Shown: positions 101-60,989 of the stretch, piece after piece
How positions within the stretch are numbered: the first letter of the stretch is position 1
How the letters are laid out: each line of letters starts with the position of its first letter
Virus record (IMG/VR): IMGVR_UViG_3300028887_000002
Coordinates: 276,278-339,287 of that record
Reading direction: 5' to 3' (one strand)
From: a virus
Lineage: Duplodnaviria; Heunggongvirae; Uroviricota; Caudoviricetes
Length of the DNA: 63,010 nucleotides
Made by a program: the position numbers and the translations under genes
Notes under the pieces: generated by a model
What the model was told of the DNA's origin: nothing
The model's database searches: none
The model's input: the letters and a program-made list of their open reading frames with translations, nothing else

Positions 101-168
101 CCATTACACATTTTTTTCATAACAAACGTTCTTTAACATATTGGAAAATAAGAAAATACGATATTCAT

Positions 169-733
169 ATTGTTGTAGACCTTGTGTTTTAGGGGTCTAA
201 CAACGAAAGGGTAATCTTGTCCGCGATTGTCCGTATTGTTGTAGACCTTGTGTTTTAGGGGTCTAACAACGTTACTGAACCATTCCTTAATACACTTTCA
301 ATTGTTGTAGACCTTGTGTTTTAGGGGTCTAACAACGGTACAATTTCAGTTTGTGGGTCAGGACTTATTGTTGTAGACCTTGTGTTTTAGGGGTCTAACA
401 ACGACATATCTGTAAAGGTTCCGCCTACACTTATTGTTGTAGACCTTGTGTTTTAGGGGTCTAACAACGTATCTTCTACCCTTGAACTATCAAAAGTGAT
501 TGTTGTAGACCTTGTGTTTTAGGGGTCTAACAACCACAGATAGGAAGCATTGCAATCTCAACCGCATTGTTGTAGACCTTGTGTTTTAGGGGTCTAACAA
601 CGATGGTCTTTGTCCTATCATACACCCGAAAATTGTTGTAGACCTTGTGTTTTAGGGGTCTAACAACTTCAGCACTATGGAAGGGTCAAAGTCGTTCATT
701 GTTGTAGGCCTTGTGTTTTAGAGGTCTAACAAC
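169..733 (+). CRISPR. CRISPR array, 9 x 36-bp repeat ATTGTTGTAGACCTTGTGTTTTAGGGGTCTAACAAC, 8 spacers of 30-31 bp
   Basis: Repeats start at 169, 235, 301, 367, 433, 499, 566, 632 and 698. The last has 2 substitutions (degenerate trailer, so leader 101-168 and + orientation). ATTGTTGTA...AACAAC with an internal TAGACC/GGTCTA stem is Cas-lambda-like. Confidence 0.98.
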
Positions 734-841
734 GATAAAAATCCGTCCCACACAAAATTAATGTAATATCTTAGTTTTGTTACATCAACACTATATAATT
801 AAAAAAATAAAAAAATATTTTGTGGATTCAAAAAATCATTA

Positions 842-2616: not shown

Positions 2617-3007
2617 TATGGAAGAATCGAAACAAAAATTCACAGTGGTGGAAGACAAGACCCTCGGCGAGGGTGCCTGGGACAAACGCTATATTGTGGT
2701 AGACACCGAAACAGGTGAGGTACTTGACAATGCACAGGGCTATGGATACAAGTCCATCCAAAATGCATACAAGGCATATGGTTATAAGTCGAAGCACAAG
2801 AATCCGAAGCAACATTCAAAAATGATGAAGAAGAAAGTGCTTGCATTTATTAAGAATAATAACAAGGTGTTTGACGAACTAAGTGATATAGCGTTTTATG
2901 CCGCGAAGGATGGGGAAGAATTAACCGAGACACAGATAAAGGACTTCCTCAAGGAGCACAACGTTGAACTTCCGTTCACATACAAGGAGTTAAGAAGATA
3001 CTGGTAG
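2606..3007 (+). CDS. Hypothetical phage protein
   Basis: 133-aa ORF in operon. Confidence 0.8.
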   Translation: MATDMEESKQKFTVVEDKTLGEGAWDKRYIVVDTETGEVLDNAQGYGYKSIQNAYKAYGYKSKHKNPKQHSKMMKKKVLAFIKNNNKVFDELSDIAFYAAKDGEELTETQIKDFLKEHNVELPFTYKELRRYW

Positions 3008-3038
3008 AAAAAAAAAATAAACTTAACAATTATATAAT

Positions 3039-3632
3039 ATGGATACAAAAAATAACAATTTAAAGATAGTCAAGTACCTAAAGGCAGTTCATCACTTTCT
3101 ATGTGATGCAAACAAACTGTTCAACCAGAATGCTGCGTTCTATATGGCGATAGAGGAATGCATTGAAGCCCTATTTCAAAACACCATATATTTCACAATA
3201 TGTTCTGAATACTATGACTTCAATTGTAGGGAACACGATGTTAACTTGAAATATATTCAAGGTCGGTGTGAAGGCATACTTAATTTTTCACGGCATTACC
3301 GTAAAATGTCTGACAACCAGTGTGTATATTTTGTTTTTCACAATTTAGAAAATATGCTCAATGAGGTTATAAACCTAATCAATGACGTACTACCAACCGA
3401 AAAACCAAAAAGTGTAGGTTTAGTTGTAGGCTGTGACAAGAAGACCAACGACATACTCGAACCAGCAGATGTACTTGAGTTTCTTACCCAAAAAGTGCCA
3501 CTTGCGCCGATTGTAGATGACTTGAAAAACGTAGAACTGCCACGAGAAACACTTACATCACGCATAGCAAGGCTTTGGATTGAACAACTGGCGGATGCAA
3601 CAGACCTCAAGTGCATAAAGCAAGAATTCTAA
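3039..3632 (+). CDS. Hypothetical phage protein
   Basis: 197-aa ORF. Confidence 0.8.
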   Translation: MDTKNNNLKIVKYLKAVHHFLCDANKLFNQNAAFYMAIEECIEALFQNTIYFTICSEYYDFNCREHDVNLKYIQGRCEGILNFSRHYRKMSDNQCVYFVFHNLENMLNEVINLINDVLPTEKPKSVGLVVGCDKKTNDILEPADVLEFLTQKVPLAPIVDDLKNVELPRETLTSRIARLWIEQLADATDLKCIKQEF

Positions 3633-16677: not shown

Positions 16678-18236
16678 AAAAATACTGACGCGGAAACCCA
16701 CGTGTTTCAACAGTGGGGGGGGGGAAGCGTCTCTCAATTTATTAAGTTAATAATATTGTTAATTCTCTCTGTCATTGACGTCTGTCTTGTTTGACCTCGC
16801 AAATATACAACGTCTTTTTGAATTGACAAAATATTTTTTAAAAAATTTTAATAAATATTGAGAAATTTTTCAAATTCCCTTATATTTATATATAGTAAAA
16901 AATTACAGAACTATGTACCTGACGACGACCGTATTGCAGACCCCAAAGAACCACGAGGTTGACCTCGCGGTGCTAAAGGCTCTGTGCTACCAGTCGGCAA
17001 GACTGTACAATGCAAGCCTGTACAACATCCGCCAGCACTACTTCGCCACGACCCGCTACCTGTCGTACAACGACAACTGGCGCATGACGAAGGACAATCT
17101 GAACTATAGACTGCTGATATCCGACTCGGCACAGCAGATAATGCGTATGGCCGACAGGGACATGCAGTCGTTCTTCAAACTCCTCTACCTCAAGTCGCAG
17201 GGGAAGTACTCCGCAAGGGTTAATCTCCCCCGCTACAAGAAGGGTGATGACTGTTCGACCTACGTCGTGTGCGGACGTTCAGCCCGCATCCAGAAAGACG
17301 GCACTGTTAACATAGGCGTGACAAAGGAGTTCCGCGAGAAGTACGGCTACGACAGCAGGTACATCAAGTTCACAATCCCCCGCAACCTCCGTGACGTGAA
17401 GGAGTTCAAGGAGGTTCGCATCAACCCCCAGTACAATGCGACCCAGTTCTGCGTCCAGTTCATCTACGAGTCCGCACAGGCGCCACAGCAGGCATCTGGT
17501 GACGGCTGGATGTCGATTGACCTCGGACTGGACAACCTAATGGCTTGTACGGCCTTTTCTAATGGCGGCTCCCGACAGTTCCTAATTGACGGGAGGAGAC
17601 TAAAACACATTAACCGCTATTACAACAAGGAAATCGCACACCTCAAGGCTGCCCGACCCGACAAGTTCGACCTGTCCAAAAGGATGATAAGGCTTATGAA
17701 CGGACGGAAAAACAGGATTTCGCAGTACTTCGACCGCACGGTGAAGTACGTTGTGGGCGAATGCCTCGCCCTCGGCGTGACCCGTGTTGTCGTGGGGCAT
17801 AACGAGGGGTGGAAGCAGGAGGTCAACCTCAAGGACTTCAACAACCAGAACTTCACGTTTATCCCGCACTACCTGCTGTTGAGGAAACTGCGCTCGAAGT
17901 GCGAGTTCCACGGCATCAAGTTCCTTACGGTCGAGGAGAGTTACACCTCGAAGGCCAGTTGCCTGGATATGGACGACATACCAACTTATACACCGAACGA
18001 CCATGTGAAGTACAAGTTCTCTGGCCGTAGGAAGTATAGGGGACTGTATAAATCAAAGGAGGGCCTGTTGATTAACGCCGACATCAACGGGGCGGTCAAT
18101 ATCCTGCGGAAGTATTTTGTTAATGGCAAGCTGGACTGGATATTCCAGGACAGTGTGAGAGCGCTCGTCAACGCGCCGTGTCCGAGGGTTCATCCCTTCG
18201 GCTCAAGCCCACGCACTTCAGTCGTGGGTGGTTGAC
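16678..18236 (+). mobile_element. Non-autonomous IS200/IS605-family element (tnpB only, IS1341-like)
   Basis: Left-end hairpin GACGC-GGAAA-CCCACG...GTGGG...GGAA-GCGTC; right end AAGCCCACGCACTTCAGTCGTGGGTGGTTGAC; left ~160 bp repeated at 61683-61842. Confidence 0.85.
16913..18235 (+). CDS. tnpB: TnpB RNA-guided endonuclease
   Basis: N-terminal HTH (RLYNASLY), SIDLGLDN, EESYTSK, NADINGAVNI; RuvC-II appears as VVVGHN (no canonical E at that position); GC-rich. Confidence 0.9.
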   Translation: MYLTTTVLQTPKNHEVDLAVLKALCYQSARLYNASLYNIRQHYFATTRYLSYNDNWRMTKDNLNYRLLISDSAQQIMRMADRDMQSFFKLLYLKSQGKYSARVNLPRYKKGDDCSTYVVCGRSARIQKDGTVNIGVTKEFREKYGYDSRYIKFTIPRNLRDVKEFKEVRINPQYNATQFCVQFIYESAQAPQQASGDGWMSIDLGLDNLMACTAFSNGGSRQFLIDGRRLKHINRYYNKEIAHLKAARPDKFDLSKRMIRLMNGRKNRISQYFDRTVKYVVGECLALGVTRVVVGHNEGWKQEVNLKDFNNQNFTFIPHYLLLRKLRSKCEFHGIKFLTVEESYTSKASCLDMDDIPTYTPNDHVKYKFSGRRKYRGLYKSKEGLLINADINGAVNILRKYFVNGKLDWIFQDSVRALVNAPCPRVHPFGSSPRTSVVGG

Positions 18237-18373
18237 CCAGGGATTAGCACATTGTCATAGTACTGATTTCTCGTTACAATGTGATTCACATCAAAACTCT
18301 TGCTTACTGCGTTAGTATACGCAACATCCTCAAGTAATTGGTTGAAATCAACCTTTAATGTAATCTGTCCCAT
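18218..18373 (-). CDS. Small ORF MGQITLKVDF...NVLIPG whose 3' end abuts the IS right end
   Basis: 51 codons directly downstream of cassette promoter 18432-18446; last 5 codons are IS-derived. Confidence 0.5.
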   Translation of the reverse strand: MGQITLKVDFNQLLEDVAYTNAVSKSFDVNHIVTRNQYYDNVLIPGSTTHD

Positions 18374-18414: not shown

Positions 18415-18456
18415 CATTTATAAGCCCCATTAAGTTGATACGTTCAGAATGGGGTG
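18415..18456 (-). promoter_or_regulatory. Divergent copy of the phage promoter/stem-loop cassette
   Basis: Core AAGTTGATACGTTCA at 18432-18446 inside a CCCCATT/AATGGGG stem. Confidence 0.65.
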
Positions 18457-18464
18457 ATGTCTTT

Positions 18465-18852
18465 AAAAAACAGGCCTGTGGAACCTGTGTTTATGGTCTT
18501 ATCGCCATATCGGAGACCTTGCGCAAGAAGCCAGTCAACTCTCTACGTCGGGAATGCGTTTTCTACTAAAAGTACGCGGCACTGGCTGTCCCCAACTTAA
18601 GCGTCTTCCTTTTGTTATAATATTTCACATAGCGATTTTTCATCTTTACAGGGCTTAGCACCTTATGTGACCATATCATTCACCCACTGCGTTATCCTTG
18701 CACATTATTGTTTAGTGTCCCAGTCTTTTGAGGTGAAACAAACTCGCAACTGGGTAGGAAAGGGTTTCCGCTGATTTCGGAAGATTAAACACGAGGTTGT
18801 TCAGCCCCGTGCACCACAGAAAAATATCAAAGAACATGTGTGTCATTCATTG
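18465..18852 (-). ncRNA. Stand-alone group-I-intron-like structured RNA, copy 1
   Basis: -7 box at 18859-18866; GTTCTTTGA leader; P3-like TCTTCC/GGAAGA; P4-like AAATCAGCGGAA/ACGCAG; loop TAAACAATAAT shared with copy 2; ACAGG/CCTGT-T6 terminator. Confidence 0.65.
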
Positions 18853-18909
18853 ACAATGCAAAGATATGTATTATTTTTGAAACTACAAAGAAAAAAATTA
18901 TTTTTTTTT

Positions 18910-59811: not shown

Positions 59812-60393
59812 TTAGTTTGCTTCCAATATTTCTTCCAAAGTTCTCGGAGTATAGTCCATATAGGGTAACATGCAACCCACGTTGAAAGCGTTGAACACAT
59901 CTTCGGCAAGGATACCGTCCTTCTTTGCATATAATTCCTTTGTTCTACGCTTATGTGCTTCATACTCCCAGTAGTCTATGTTCATATGGACATGCCCGTA
60001 GAGATGAATCCATCCTCTAAATAAATTTCTATATGAAAAAATCGGAAAGTGGCTGAGAACGATTGACATATCCTTTCCTAAACTTAACTCCTTGTAGTCT
60101 GCTATTTCCACGAAGCACTTGCGGAACTCCAGGCTCTTGAGGAACTTGTGGTCGTGGTTGCCAACGATGAAGTGCTTGTGTCCGTTAAGCATCTCAAGTA
60201 TGTTGATTGTGGCGGTTGTATTTTTCCACGATATGTCACCGAGGATATATACGTCATCGTCAATGTTCACTGCCTCGTTCCAACGCCTTATGAGTTCGGT
60301 GTCGTGTTTGTCAATGTCAGTAAACGGCCTGTTGTCGAATAACAGGCAATTCTCGTGCCCAAAATGTAAATCCGATATAAAATAGTTTGCCAT
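59812..60393 (-). CDS. Calcineurin-like metallophosphoesterase
   Basis: SDLHFGH, LGD, GNHD, SHFP, HLYGHVH. Confidence 0.9.
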   Translation of the reverse strand: MANYFISDLHFGHENCLLFDNRPFTDIDKHDTELIRRWNEAVNIDDDVYILGDISWKNTTATINILEMLNGHKHFIVGNHDHKFLKSLEFRKCFVEIADYKELSLGKDMSIVLSHFPIFSYRNLFRGWIHLYGHVHMNIDYWEYEAHKRRTKELYAKKDGILAEDVFNAFNVGCMLPYMDYTPRTLEEILEAN

Positions 60394-60421
60394 ATTTAAT
60401 TTTTTATTTGTTTAACATAAT

Positions 60422-60930
60422 AAAAAAGGATGTGTGAATCCTTATAACCACTCTATGTTGCCATAGTCAAACAATGAGTGATGCTGAGACATATTTAATA
60501 CTGAATTATTTCATCAGGCACCATTTTTTAACGTCCCTATATTCTATTGTCTGTTGTGGTCTGTACTGTCTCATTACCATATTGAAATTCTTCGAAGTAA
60601 GTGCTGGCTACGTGTCATCTTTGGATTTGATATTTCCTCACCAGTGAGTCCACCATACACCAATTCCAACTTAGGTATCTCCCGTTCAGTCTCTACACGA
60701 TTATGAGACCCTCGGTGGTGCTCCACCGATATTCTTTCACGGCCTTAAGATGTCCTTAGTATCTCCAGACATCGTCTCATTTTCGCTCGGTATAGTCCTG
60801 GACATTATTGTTTAGTCCATAGCTTTACGTCCTATTACACTAAGGATTTCCACCGAATTTAGGAGATTCTACTATGGGATTTCTCGCCATAGCACACACA
60901 ATATTTTCAAAGAACGTTATGTCTTATTTG
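60422..60930 (-). ncRNA. Stand-alone group-I-intron-like structured RNA, copy 2
   Basis: -7 box 60937-60944; P3 ATCTCCT/GGGAGAT; P4 TCGGTG/TACCGA; P6a GAGAC/GTCTC; R-like GTAGAGACTGAACG; S-like ATGAGACAGTAC; GGAT/ATCC-T6 terminator. Confidence 0.7.
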
Positions 60931-60989
60931 ACGATGCAAAGATAAAAACTATTTTTGAAACTGCCAAATATTTTTTTTTATTTTTTTTT

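What the first reader, a model, noticed from the sequence alone, without database searches (positions are those of the whole stretch)
18465..18852. Second, diverged paralog of the same ncRNA (copy 1) with compensatory stems
Seen: 42 kb away and with low overall identity, the same architecture recurs. It has an identical promoter type (18859-18866), GTTCTTTGA, P3-like TCTTCC (18779-18784)/GGAAGA (18604-18609), AAATCAGCGGAA, and TAAGTTGG opening P8. The 11-nt loop TAAACAATAAT (18704-18714 vs 60804-60814) is identical but closed by a different stem (CAC/GTG vs GGAC/GTCC). It ends in ACAGG/CCTGT-T6. Its P7 region is even less canonical, and AGCCAGT/ACTGGCT could form an extra pseudoknot. Inference: invariant loops with covarying stems indicate selection on an RNA structure and a shared protein or tertiary partner, i.e. 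a multi-copy ncRNA family rather than intron debris.
Basis: partly seen in the sequence, partly recalled or inferred. Interest (0 to 1): 0.82.

Follow-up and report, generated by a model that had tools for sequence, protein, structure and literature searches.

The report
Exon-less, ribozyme-dead group I intron RNA
This gene-free stretch of a 339-kb rumen phage is a stand-alone RNA descended from the self-splicing introns that sit in the tRNA genes of related phages. It has lost its tRNA and its catalytic helix, yet it is still driven by a host promoter and a ribosomal-RNA-type antitermination signal.

Summary
A profile built only from relatives in other phages hits this genome at exactly two places: copy 2 (E 3e-78) and this copy (E 1e-8).

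The family is not a new ncRNA class. It is an Azoarcus-like group I intron family that sits in the anticodon loops of tRNA genes (assigned by eye from the joined exons to Met, Leu, Lys and Arg) in large rumen phages, and Rfam misses it. Its fold is well supported: 95.9% of cells paired, 23 of 53 pairs with compensatory changes.

Copy 1 keeps P2, P3, P5/P5a with the invariant 11-nt loop, and P8 with a GAAA-tetraloop receptor (11/11 pairs). It has no P7, no P9, a weakened P4 and no tRNA halves, so it cannot splice.

GTTCTTTGA is the Bacteroidota rRNA-spacer boxA. In this genome it follows only three of 107 host-type promoters: the tRNA array and the two intron-derived RNAs.

RNA-library contigs from three studies cover only this unit.

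Whether it is domesticated or a still-transcribed relic stays open; I favour a retained non-catalytic role (about 0.55).

The scan has noted related phage tRNA introns and free-standing group I ribozymes on other DNA.

The parts
18859..18889 (-). Host (Bacteroidota) sigma-A-type promoter: TTTG (18889-18886), 19-nt spacer, TATCTTTG (18866-18859), with an A/T tract upstream. Inferred transcription start is near 18853-18850.
   Evidence: Sequence. It belongs to repeat family D6 of similar promoters in the window. It is one of 107 such sites in the genome.
18827..18835 (-). boxA-type antitermination element GTTCTTTGA, 23 nt after the -7 box.
   Evidence: The extended motif GTTCTTTGACATATTGG gave at least 120 hits in bacterial genomes, most of them titled Bacteroidota. 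49 of the 81 matches examined lie 270-880 nt after the 16S 3' end. In a Pedobacter rrn contig it lies between the spacer tRNAs and the 23S. In this genome only 3 of 107 promoter-like sites carry it: c1, c2 and the tRNA array.
18789..18812 (-). P2 hairpin: GCACGGGG / CCUCGUGU with an 8-nt loop.
   Evidence: Aligned with the family's P2. 5 of 6 aligned pairs are kept, and the copy has its own 7-8 bp stem.
18779..18785 (-). P3 5' strand AUCUUCC. It pairs with GGAAGA at 18609-18604.
   Evidence: 6 of 7 pairs are kept. There is a C-G to U-A compensatory change relative to copy 2 and most of the family.
18765..18778 (-). J3/4 plus the P4 5' strand and J4/5 (GAAAUCAGCGGAAA), cognate of the family's AAAUUCGGUGGAAA. 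P4 is weakened.
   Evidence: Lies inside the HMM match at 18786-18692. Only 3 of 6 P4 pairs are left.
18695..18764 (-). P5 (18764-18761 / 18698-18695). It encloses a variable hairpin (CCCAGU 18754-18749 / ACUGGG 24-19) and the P5a hairpin CAC-UAAACAAUAAU-GUG (18717-18701; loop 18714-18704).
   Evidence: P5 keeps 3 of 4 pairs and P5a 3 of 4. The loop matches the family consensus UAAnCAAUAAU. Strain variants keep or restore pairs here: 18716 A>G, 18718 A>G, 18764 C>U.
18626..18669 (-). Hairpin in the P6 position. Its stem (CACAUA/UAUGUG) closes an invariant block of about 32-35 nt that starts AAGGUGCUAAGCCC.
   Evidence: The same block occurs in L041, L045 and L053, closed by different stems (AGAUA/UAUCU, GAUACAA/UUGUAUC). 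About 9 other RNA-library contigs share it. It was not found in 401 genomes drawn from the order of a Bacteroidales genome.
18604..18609 (-). P3 3' strand GGAAGA. The family's R element and P7 5' strand, which should lie just upstream, are missing.
   Evidence: Alignment A3. P7 has 0 of 5 pairs.
18505..18601 (-). P8 domain. Receptor half CUUAAG (18601-18596). Helix UUGGGGAC (18595-18588) / GUCUCCGA (18517-18510). Receptor half UAUGG (18509-18505). Nested P8a AGCCAGU (18587-18581) / ACUGGCU (18535-18529). 3'-side bulge CUUGCGCAAG (18527-18518).
   Evidence: 11 of 11 pairs are kept, with several compensatory changes. In other strains 18600 U>C gives the canonical CCUAAG. The bulge stays palindromic where the family has CUUGCAAG.
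18465..18488 (-). Intrinsic terminator: 7-bp hairpin plus U6. It follows J8/7 directly, where the family has P7 3' and the P9 domain.
   Evidence: Terminator scan. P9 columns are empty for c1.
18432..18446 (-). Phage-type promoter motif TGAACGTATCAACTT for the next gene (ATG at 18373). It marks the lower boundary of the RNA unit and is not part of the RNA.
   Evidence: 21 copies in the window, all on the minus strand, against 0.21 expected.
60422..60944 (-). Copy 2, the paralogue. -7 box at 60944-60937, boxA at 60915-60907, near-complete group I core at 60907-60447, weak hairpin plus U6 at 60442-60422.
   Evidence: HMM E 3.3e-78. Rfam Intron_gpI 19.8 bits, E 0.01, full-length alignment, below the gathering score of 50. 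All helices are intact except G.A at the guanosine-site pair of P7. No tRNA halves.

Best explanation
Window 18465-18853 (minus strand) encodes a stand-alone RNA of about 370-385 nt. It descends from an Azoarcus-like (IC3-type) group I intron family that sits in the anticodon loops of tRNA genes in large rumen phages.

Shown:
- It is homologous to those introns.
- It has no tRNA halves.
- It has lost P7 (the guanosine-binding helix) and the whole P9 domain, and P4 is weakened, so it cannot self-splice.
- It keeps P2, P3, P5/P5a with the invariant loop, and P8 with its 11-nt tetraloop receptor and a palindromic bulge.
- It starts at a host-type promoter, followed 23 nt later by the same boxA motif that lies in Bacteroidota 16S-23S spacers.
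- It ends in an intrinsic terminator.
- Contigs from three RNA-library studies cover this unit and not its flanks.

Inferred:
- Host RNA polymerase transcribes it early.
- boxA recruits the Nus antitermination complex, so the untranslated transcript escapes Rho. That would make it a stable-RNA gene of the same kind as the phage's tRNA array.
- The RNA is kept for a non-splicing role that uses the retained modules: the invariant P5a loop, the 35-nt block and the self-complementary P8 bulge. The most likely roles are a scaffold or a decoy for a protein or tRNA-related partner, possibly as a homodimer.
For: Homology:
- A profile of 10 family introns from other phages (7 called as intron-split tRNAs by aragorn, the rest judged by eye) hits the genome only at c2 and c1.
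- Alignment A3 places c1's P2, P3, P4, P5, P5a and P8 against the family.

Family is group I and tRNA-borne:
- aragorn finds intron-split tRNAs at L054, L055, L056, L057, L058, L060 and L064, and in G410 and G411.
- The structure with the P3/P7 pseudoknot has 95.9% of cells paired, against 33-44% when the partners are slid. 23 of 53 pairs have changes on both sides, and 0 of 500 shuffles reach that.
- c2 aligns full-length to Rfam RF00028.

State of c1:
- P7 0/5, P9 absent, P4 3/6, P8 plus receptor 11/11, P3 6/7.
- No tRNA found.

boxA:
-. The 9-mer follows 3 of 107 promoters, and all three head non-coding units.

Expression:
- RNA-library contigs at 18517-18824, 18574-18840 and 18498-18786, from three studies, with none in the flanks.

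Constraint:
- The four strain variants that fall in helices all keep or restore pairing.
- The P8 bulge changed only in c1 and c2, and stayed palindromic in both.
- Promoter, boxA and terminator are all intact, in a genome I estimate at about 93% coding with only 15 gaps of 250 nt or more.
Against: - No function is shown.
- In the one other strain seen, c1 differs by 2.8% and its flanks by about 2.9%, so there is no rate evidence for selection.
- Single-sequence folding is no better than shuffles (z -0.55).
- No orthologue of c1 was found in the viral or metagenome collections, so c1-specific covariation cannot be measured.
- Exon-less copies do not clearly form one clade (weak support). Recurrent decay of a selfish intron behind boxA therefore fits the layout too.
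- Contigs from RNA libraries cannot prove transcription, transcript ends or strand.
- A structured relic made from a strong promoter would also accumulate.
Confidence: 0.55

Rival explanations
1. Transcribed relic. A selfish, ORF-less group I intron (or an intron-bearing tRNA gene) lay behind a promoter and boxA. The tRNA was lost and the intron is decaying: P7, P9 and P4 are gone or eroded. The RNA still accumulates because the promoter is strong and the remaining fold is stable, but it does nothing for the phage.
For: - The catalytic parts of c1 are lost, and c2 has a point change at the guanosine-site pair.
- c1 sits on a very long branch.
- Divergence between strains equals that of the flanks.
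- In related phages the family behaves as a multi-copy mobile intron in tRNA arrays.
- Exon-less copies are scattered among tRNA-borne ones in the tree.
Against: - The promoter, the 9/9 boxA and the terminator are intact in both copies, while 400-500 nt of useless DNA persists in a tightly packed genome.
- Both tRNA halves are gone from c2, yet all of its core helices are intact.
- The retained helices of c1 carry compensatory changes, and strain variants preserve pairing.
- The palindromic bulge changed but stayed palindromic in exactly these two copies.
- The same promoter or boxA plus exon-less RNA layout recurs in L059/L063.
Confidence: 0.3
2. Cis-acting leader. The RNA is mainly the 5' untranslated region of the downstream gene or genes. 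The boxA-modified polymerase reads through the hairpin-U6, and the folded intron remnant controls or stabilises that mRNA.
For: - For c2, the weak hairpin-U6 ends about 27 nt before the ATG of the phosphoesterase gene, with no promoter in between.
- Earlier scan notes describe exon-less group I ribozymes in the leaders of soil jumbo-phage genes (untested here).
Against: - c1 has a good terminator: 7 bp, 3 G-C pairs, U6.
- The next gene has its own phage-type promoter at 18446-18432.
- RNA-library contigs stop inside the unit.
Confidence: 0.1
3. A new ncRNA family unrelated to introns, with a chance resemblance to group I helices.
For: - No Rfam family reaches its gathering score.
- c1 lacks P7.
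Against: - A profile of tRNA-embedded introns finds c1 at E 1e-8.
- c2 is colinear with those introns over about 470 nt.
- The group I core, including the P3/P7 pseudoknot, covaries.
Confidence: 0.03

Closest known systems
Group I introns in bacterial tRNA anticodon loops (subgroup IC3: Azoarcus tRNA-Ile, cyanobacterial and plastid tRNA-Leu(UAA) and tRNA-fMet). The named examples and their sequences are from my own memory.
   Same: - By my reading of the joined exons, the phage family sits at 34/35 (Leu-UAA, Lys, Arg) or 36/37 (Met) of tRNA genes. aragorn confirms Leu(taa) with the intron in the anticodon loop (L055, L064, and L057, which I read as Lys) and Met(cat) for L060; its other calls differ from my reading.
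- It has the P3-P4-P5-P6-P7-P3'-P8-P7' order.
- It has the P element AAAUUCGGUGGAAA and the R element GUGUAGAGACUGAAC.
- P7 carries a bulged A next to a G-C pair.
- P8 carries an 11-nt GAAA receptor, and the P9 hairpin ends in a GNRA loop.
- c1 shares P2, P3, P5 and P8.
   Different: - c1 has no exons, no P7, no P9 and a weak P4.
- It has its own promoter, boxA and terminator.
- It carries an extra invariant 35-nt block in the P6 position.
- Even the tRNA-borne phage members stay below Rfam's group I gathering score.
Copy 2 of the same genome (window 60422-60944)
   Same: - Same promoter type.
- boxA at 21-23 nt after the -7 box.
- Same order of P2, P3, P4, P5a loop, P3' and P8 receptor.
- Identical 15-mer ACUAAACAAUAAUGU.
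- No tRNA halves.
   Different: - c2 keeps every core helix and the P9 domain; only the guanosine-site pair is broken (G.A).
- About 49% identity over the aligned columns.
- c2 abuts a downstream gene.
rRNA-operon boxA (NusB/NusE-dependent antitermination). The protein mechanism is from established knowledge of E. coli rrn operons.
   Same: - The 9-mer and its extension are identical to the motif in Bacteroidota 16S-23S spacers.
- It is promoter-proximal on untranslated transcripts.
   Different: It is used here by a phage for its tRNA array and for intron-derived RNAs. Binding of Nus factors was not tested.
GIR1 lariat-capping ribozyme (a group I derivative with a new job)
   Same: An RNA of group I ancestry that no longer splices.
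   Different: GIR1 keeps a reshaped catalytic core and lives inside a twin-ribozyme intron. c1 has lost the core helix P7. No Rfam hit.
ROOL and GOLLD large phage-associated RNAs
   Same: Large structured RNAs of phages and prophages, often next to tRNAs. ROOL was first seen in rumen samples (from memory).
   Different: No match to either Rfam model. The architecture is different, and here the ancestry is known (group I).
Free-standing group I ribozymes of soil jumbo phages noted earlier in this scan (e1-5321936, e1-5321945, e1-5381529; AI notes, unchecked)
   Same: A group I RNA of tRNA-intron descent that interrupts no gene, in a jumbo phage.
   Different: Those are described as complete, apparently working ribozymes in gene leaders. 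c1 is catalytically dead and has its own terminator.

Membership tests
Group I intron (functional, self-splicing) | Conserved core with the P3/P7 pseudoknot (P3-P4-P5-P6-P7-P3'-P8-P7') | tested here: not met
   The family meets it. c1 has P3 at 6/7 and P8 at 11/11, but P7 at 0/5 and P4 at 3/6.
Group I intron (functional, self-splicing) | Guanosine-binding G-C pair in P7 next to a bulged A | tested here: not met
   Present in 12 of 13 family rows. c2 has G.A. In c1 both P7 strands are missing.
Group I intron (functional, self-splicing) | Interrupts a gene, and removal restores it | tested here: not met
   aragorn with the intron option finds split tRNAs around 7 relatives, but none around c1 or c2. 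The promoter lies directly upstream and the terminator directly downstream.
Group I intron (functional, self-splicing) | P1 with a U.G pair at the 5' splice site, and a terminal G at the 3' end | tested here: inconclusive
   By eye, in the tRNA-borne members exon CAU pairs with GUG and exon CUU pairs with GAG just before P2. c1 has GUG and an upstream ACAU, but no defined exon. The 3' end of the family (GUGGUAG) is absent from c1.
Group I intron (functional, self-splicing) | Rfam RF00028 at or above its gathering score of 50 bits | tested here: not met
   c1 gives no hit even at E<=10. c2 scores 19.8 bits. The tRNA-borne relatives also fail.
Homologue (descendant) of the phage tRNA group I intron family | Significant profile match and colinear core elements | tested here: met
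   nhmmer E 1.1e-8 over P3 to P5a, and the genome has only two hits. P2, P3, P5, P5a and P8 are colinear in A3.
rrn-type boxA antitermination signal | Sequence identical to the host-phylum rrn spacer motif, placed promoter-proximal on an untranslated transcript | tested here: met
rrn-type boxA antitermination signal | Binds NusB/NusE and suppresses Rho-dependent termination | not testable with these tools
   This needs biochemistry or genetics.
ROOL, GOLLD, tmRNA, RNase P, 6S and other catalogued RNAs | Match to the Rfam covariance model | tested here: not met
   No family at gathering score in the window. At E<=10 there are only chance hits: RNase_MRP 11.9 bits and a lncRNA.
TnpB omega RNA of the neighbouring IS (16913-18235, + strand) | Same strand as tnpB, overlapping its 3' end up to the IS right end | tested here: not met
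   c1 is on the other strand and starts 230 nt beyond the tnpB stop. In another strain the IS is absent while c1 is present.

The most novel reading that the evidence does not exclude
Jumbo phages of rumen Bacteroidota have turned tRNA group I introns into stand-alone, catalytically dead RNA genes, expressed through the host's rRNA antitermination system. The two paralogues in this genome each changed the family's otherwise invariant self-complementary P8 bulge (CUUGCAAG) into a different palindrome (CUUGCGCAAG and CUUCGAAG). That is what would be expected if each RNA works as a homodimer, or binds a dimeric partner, and the two had to stop cross-pairing. The retained invariant loop and the 35-nt block would then be binding sites for a phage or host factor.
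Probability: 0.3. Interest if true: 0.8.

Novelty: new variant of a known kind. Interest (0 to 1): 0.55.

Why it matters
Group I introns are textbook selfish ribozymes, and examples that have been put to another use are very rare. Here a phage carries two intron descendants with no gene to splice. One of them has no catalytic helix at all, yet both are wired like stable-RNA genes: host promoter, rRNA-type boxA, terminator.

If they are functional, this would show how a ribozyme scaffold is recycled into a non-catalytic RNA.

Two by-products stand whatever the function turns out to be:
- Large Bacteroidota phages place the host rrn boxA at the head of their tRNA/tmRNA arrays.
- A widespread tRNA-intron family in these phages escapes the standard Rfam model.

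Tried and rejected
- Protein-coding under another genetic code: stops of all three kinds occur in every frame.
- Catalogued RNA family: none found.
- Single-sequence folding: c1 z -0.55, plus strand z 0.38; uninformative.
- Pairwise MAFFT of the two copies alone: unreliable outside the anchors.
- Pattern of the loop plus TAAGTTGG in viral contigs: 15 chance hits only.
- Synteny through flanking proteins: the upstream 140-aa gene has relatives in 4 loci, but no RNA follows it there. The 250-aa gene next to c2 has none.
- BLAST of c1 and c2 against relatives G001-G004: only short chance hits, one of them at a gene junction.
- c1-specific 16-mer in viral contigs: 33 chance hits and no orthologue.
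- 35-nt block in 401 genomes drawn from the order of a Bacteroidales genome: not found in those searched.
- Literature: no paper in the held library on group I introns in jumbo-phage tRNAs or on exon-less forms. A search for the boxA string found only primers.
- c2 in RNA runs: shares of 0.11-0.24 that I could not lay, so they are not used as evidence.
- Monophyly of the exon-less copies: the tree has weak support and does not decide it.
- Pairing of the P5a loop with the UUGUUU ahead of the P9 hairpin: the columns hardly vary, so it cannot be tested.
- L045 and L053 as members of the intron family: the profile does not find them. They share only the 35-nt block.

Full report
**What the window is**

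The window is the last 63 kb of a 339,287-bp phage record with direct terminal repeats. The record carries Bacteroidota-type promoters and a CRISPR-like repeat array at window 160-740; earlier scan notes identify the latter as Cas-lambda. Runs that hold this DNA are bovine and sheep gut metagenomes.

**Checking the observation**

- TTTG at 18889-18886 and TATCTTTG at 18866-18859, 19 nt apart, which is the Bacteroidota -33/-7 geometry.
- GTTCTTTGA at 18835-18827.
- TCTTCC at 18784-18779, with GGAAGA at 18609-18604.
- AAATCAGCGGAA at 18777-18766.
- TAAGTTGG at 18599-18592.
- The loop TAAACAATAAT at 18714-18704.
- A 7-bp hairpin with T6 at 18488-18465, which the terminator scan also finds.

All six frames are closed by stops of all three kinds, so recoding does not rescue an ORF. 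The 15-mer around the loop occurs only at c1 and c2 in the whole genome. Outside the promoter, the only colinear shared words of 7 nt or more are GTTCTTTGA, the 15-mer and TAAGTTGG. Taken alone, the two copies therefore give thin evidence.

**Finding relatives**

Synteny and the first patterns led nowhere.

The turn came from sequencing runs.
- Contigs from RNA libraries of three separate studies lie wholly inside c1: 18517-18824, 18574-18840 and 18498-18786, at 95-98% identity. These runs show essentially nothing from the flanks.
- A DNA run carries the same unit without the neighbouring TnpB element.
- About nine other contigs share only a 35-nt block at 18629-18665.

Scanning with that block found L041 and L045 in viral contigs and L051/L053 in metagenome contigs.
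- In L045 the RNA lies inside a tRNA/tmRNA array; in the L041-type locus (read on L050) it lies upstream of the tmRNA and tRNA genes.

A second pattern, the P4 strands shared by c2 and L041, found 12 more members in phage contigs of up to 335 kb.

**What the family is**

In most of those loci the RNA splits a tRNA gene in its anticodon loop.
- aragorn with its intron option calls intron-bearing tRNAs at L054, L055 (Leu-taa, 495-nt intron at position 35), L056, L057, L058, L060 (Met-cat) and L064 (Leu-taa).
- It also calls three more in a 334-kb phage, G410, where all copies lie in a tRNA array.
- By my reading of the joined exons the tRNAs are Met, Leu, Lys and Arg. aragorn's own anticodon calls match this only for L055 and L064 (Leu-taa) and L060 (Met-cat).

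c2 aligns full-length to Rfam's group I model, but at 19.8 bits against a gathering score of 50. The tRNA-borne members also stay below threshold.

On a 14-sequence alignment I wrote out P2, P3, P4, P5, P5a, P6, P7, P8 with its receptor, and the P9 hairpin.
- 95.9% of cells pair, against 33-44% when the partners are slid.
- 23 of 53 pairs change on both sides.
- 0 of 500 shuffles reach this.

P7 reads G-A(bulge)-GACUG / CAGUC-C. From memory, this mirrors the Tetrahymena C262-G312 / A263 / G264-C311 guanosine site. The P and R elements resemble the Azoarcus IC3 intron, also from memory.

The '11-nt loop' is the family's P5a loop, UAAnCAAUAAU.

**Where c1 and c2 stand**

A profile made from ten family introns, none from this genome, hits the 339-kb genome at only two places: c2 (E 3.3e-78) and c1 (E 1.1e-8, covering P3 to P5a). 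Neither has tRNA halves.

c2 keeps every helix. Its one defect is a G.A mismatch at the guanosine-site pair.

c1 scores as follows:

| Helix | Pairs kept in c1 |
|---|---|
| P2 | 5/6 |
| P3 | 6/7 |
| P4 | 3/6 |
| P5 | 3/4 |
| P5a | 3/4 |
| P6 | 2/5 aligned pairs; the block hairpin stands in its place |
| P7 | 0/5 |
| P8 plus receptor | 11/11 |
| P9 | absent |

The terminator follows J8/7 directly. c1 is therefore a group I descendant that cannot splice.

c1 sits on a very long branch near L041 and L065. The exon-less copies (c1, c2, L041, L059) are not clearly one clade, but support in the tree is weak.

**GTTCTTTGA is boxA**

In the phage loci the 9-mer recurs right after TAnnTTTG promoters and between tRNAs. 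It stands ahead of tRNAs, ahead of tmRNA and ahead of the exon-less RNAs.
- Its extended form, GTTCTTTGACATATTGG, gave at least 120 hits in bacterial genomes, most of them titled Bacteroidota.
- 49 of the 81 matches examined lie 270-880 nt after the 16S 3' end.
- In a Pedobacter rrn contig it sits between the spacer tRNAs and the 23S. That is the spacer boxA position.
- In this phage, 107 sites fit the host promoter pattern. Only three have the 9-mer within 70 nt downstream: c2, c1 and the tRNA array. The other three copies of the 9-mer in the genome lie inside long ORFs.

The phage thus treats c1 and c2 like its stable-RNA operon.

**Function**

This part is inferred.

For a retained role:
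- The promoter, boxA and terminator are intact in a genome with very little non-coding DNA.
- c1's retained helices carry compensatory changes.
- All four strain variants that fall in helices keep or restore pairing. One of them turns CUUAAG into the canonical CCUAAG receptor.
- The 3'-side bulge of P8 is CUUGCAAG in at least 14 distinct members. It differs only in c2 (CUUCGAAG) and c1 (CUUGCGCAAG), and both remain perfect palindromes.
- Another phage (L059/L063) has the same layout of promoter, boxA and exon-less RNA.

Against a retained role:
- Divergence between strains equals that of the flanks.
- No c1 orthologues were found for a covariation test.
- A mobile intron decaying behind boxA would look similar.

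For c2, the weak terminator ends about 27 nt before the phosphoesterase start codon with no promoter between them, so c2 may double as a leader. c1 is insulated from its neighbour by a good terminator and a phage-type promoter at 18446-18432.

**Novelty**

The kind is known (group I intron). The variant is unusual: exon-less, P7-less, expressed under boxA as its own gene.

Earlier notes of this scan already describe the phage tRNA intron family that Rfam misses, and free-standing group I ribozymes in other jumbo phages. I found the tRNA intron family independently here, on other loci. I did not test the soil-phage cases. I found no paper on either in the held library.

Noticed in passing
G000 genome 87775-87816 (outside the window); L219 (G410) about 60-120 on its reverse strand; L045 4560, 7603, 10064; L059 4960, 5980: Large Bacteroidota phages place the host rrn-type boxA (GTTCTTTGACATATTG) a few nucleotides after host-type promoters at the head of their tRNA/tmRNA arrays, and again between tRNAs. 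This suggests that they borrow rRNA antitermination for their stable RNAs.
   Followed up: partly
window 18518-18527 and 60591-60598 (minus strand): The bulge on the 3' side of P8 is CTTGCAAG in at least 14 distinct family members. It is changed only in the two copies of this genome, to two different perfect palindromes. This could be a dimerisation or dimeric-protein site that has become orthogonal between the paralogues, or it could come from template-switch mutation.
   Followed up: partly
window 18632-18663; L045 1968-2000; L053 3024-3056; L050 957-990: An invariant 32-35-nt module starting AAGGUGCUAAGCCC sits in different positions (P5 or P6) of different RNAs, closed by covarying stems. 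Two of these RNAs (L045, L053) are not detectably related to the intron core. It behaves like a movable binding module of unknown partner.
   Followed up: partly
L053 about 2790-3160: An RNA with its own promoter carries the 35-nt block and ends in a tRNA-like T-arm and acceptor (GGTTCGAACC...TGCATCCA). aragorn does not call it a tRNA.
   Followed up: no
window 60393-60442: The phosphoesterase gene (phrog_547) starts about 27 nt after copy 2's weak hairpin-U6 and has no promoter of its own. Copy 2 may therefore also serve as its leader.
   Followed up: partly
window 18236-18254: In another strain (DNA run X2) the sequence leaves the window's sequence at 18254 and at 18236. That strain therefore appears to lack the TnpB element whose ORF is 16913-18235, so the minus-strand gene starting at 18373 would be intact there. 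This points to an insertion polymorphism.
   Followed up: no
G000 genome 87450-87760 (minus strand), leader of the tRNA array: Three tandem units of about 70-90 nt, of the form GGAAxCC...ACAGCAAAAC...CTTCTGTTTTT, lie between boxA and the first tRNA. One matches the loose end seen at the IS boundary in run X2.
   Followed up: no
window 18735-18746 against 18704-18714; family columns just before the P9 hairpin: The P5a loop AAACAA is complementary to a conserved UUGUUU just upstream of the P9 hairpin in the family. c1 has lost P9 but carries UUGUUU in the apical loop of its P5 extension. This is a possible tertiary pairing, and it cannot be tested because the columns hardly vary.
   Followed up: no
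L045 1674-1804: aragorn calls a tRNA with anticodon TTA (it would read the stop codon UAA) and a 39-nt insert next to the exon-less RNA. This may be a suppressor tRNA.
   Followed up: no
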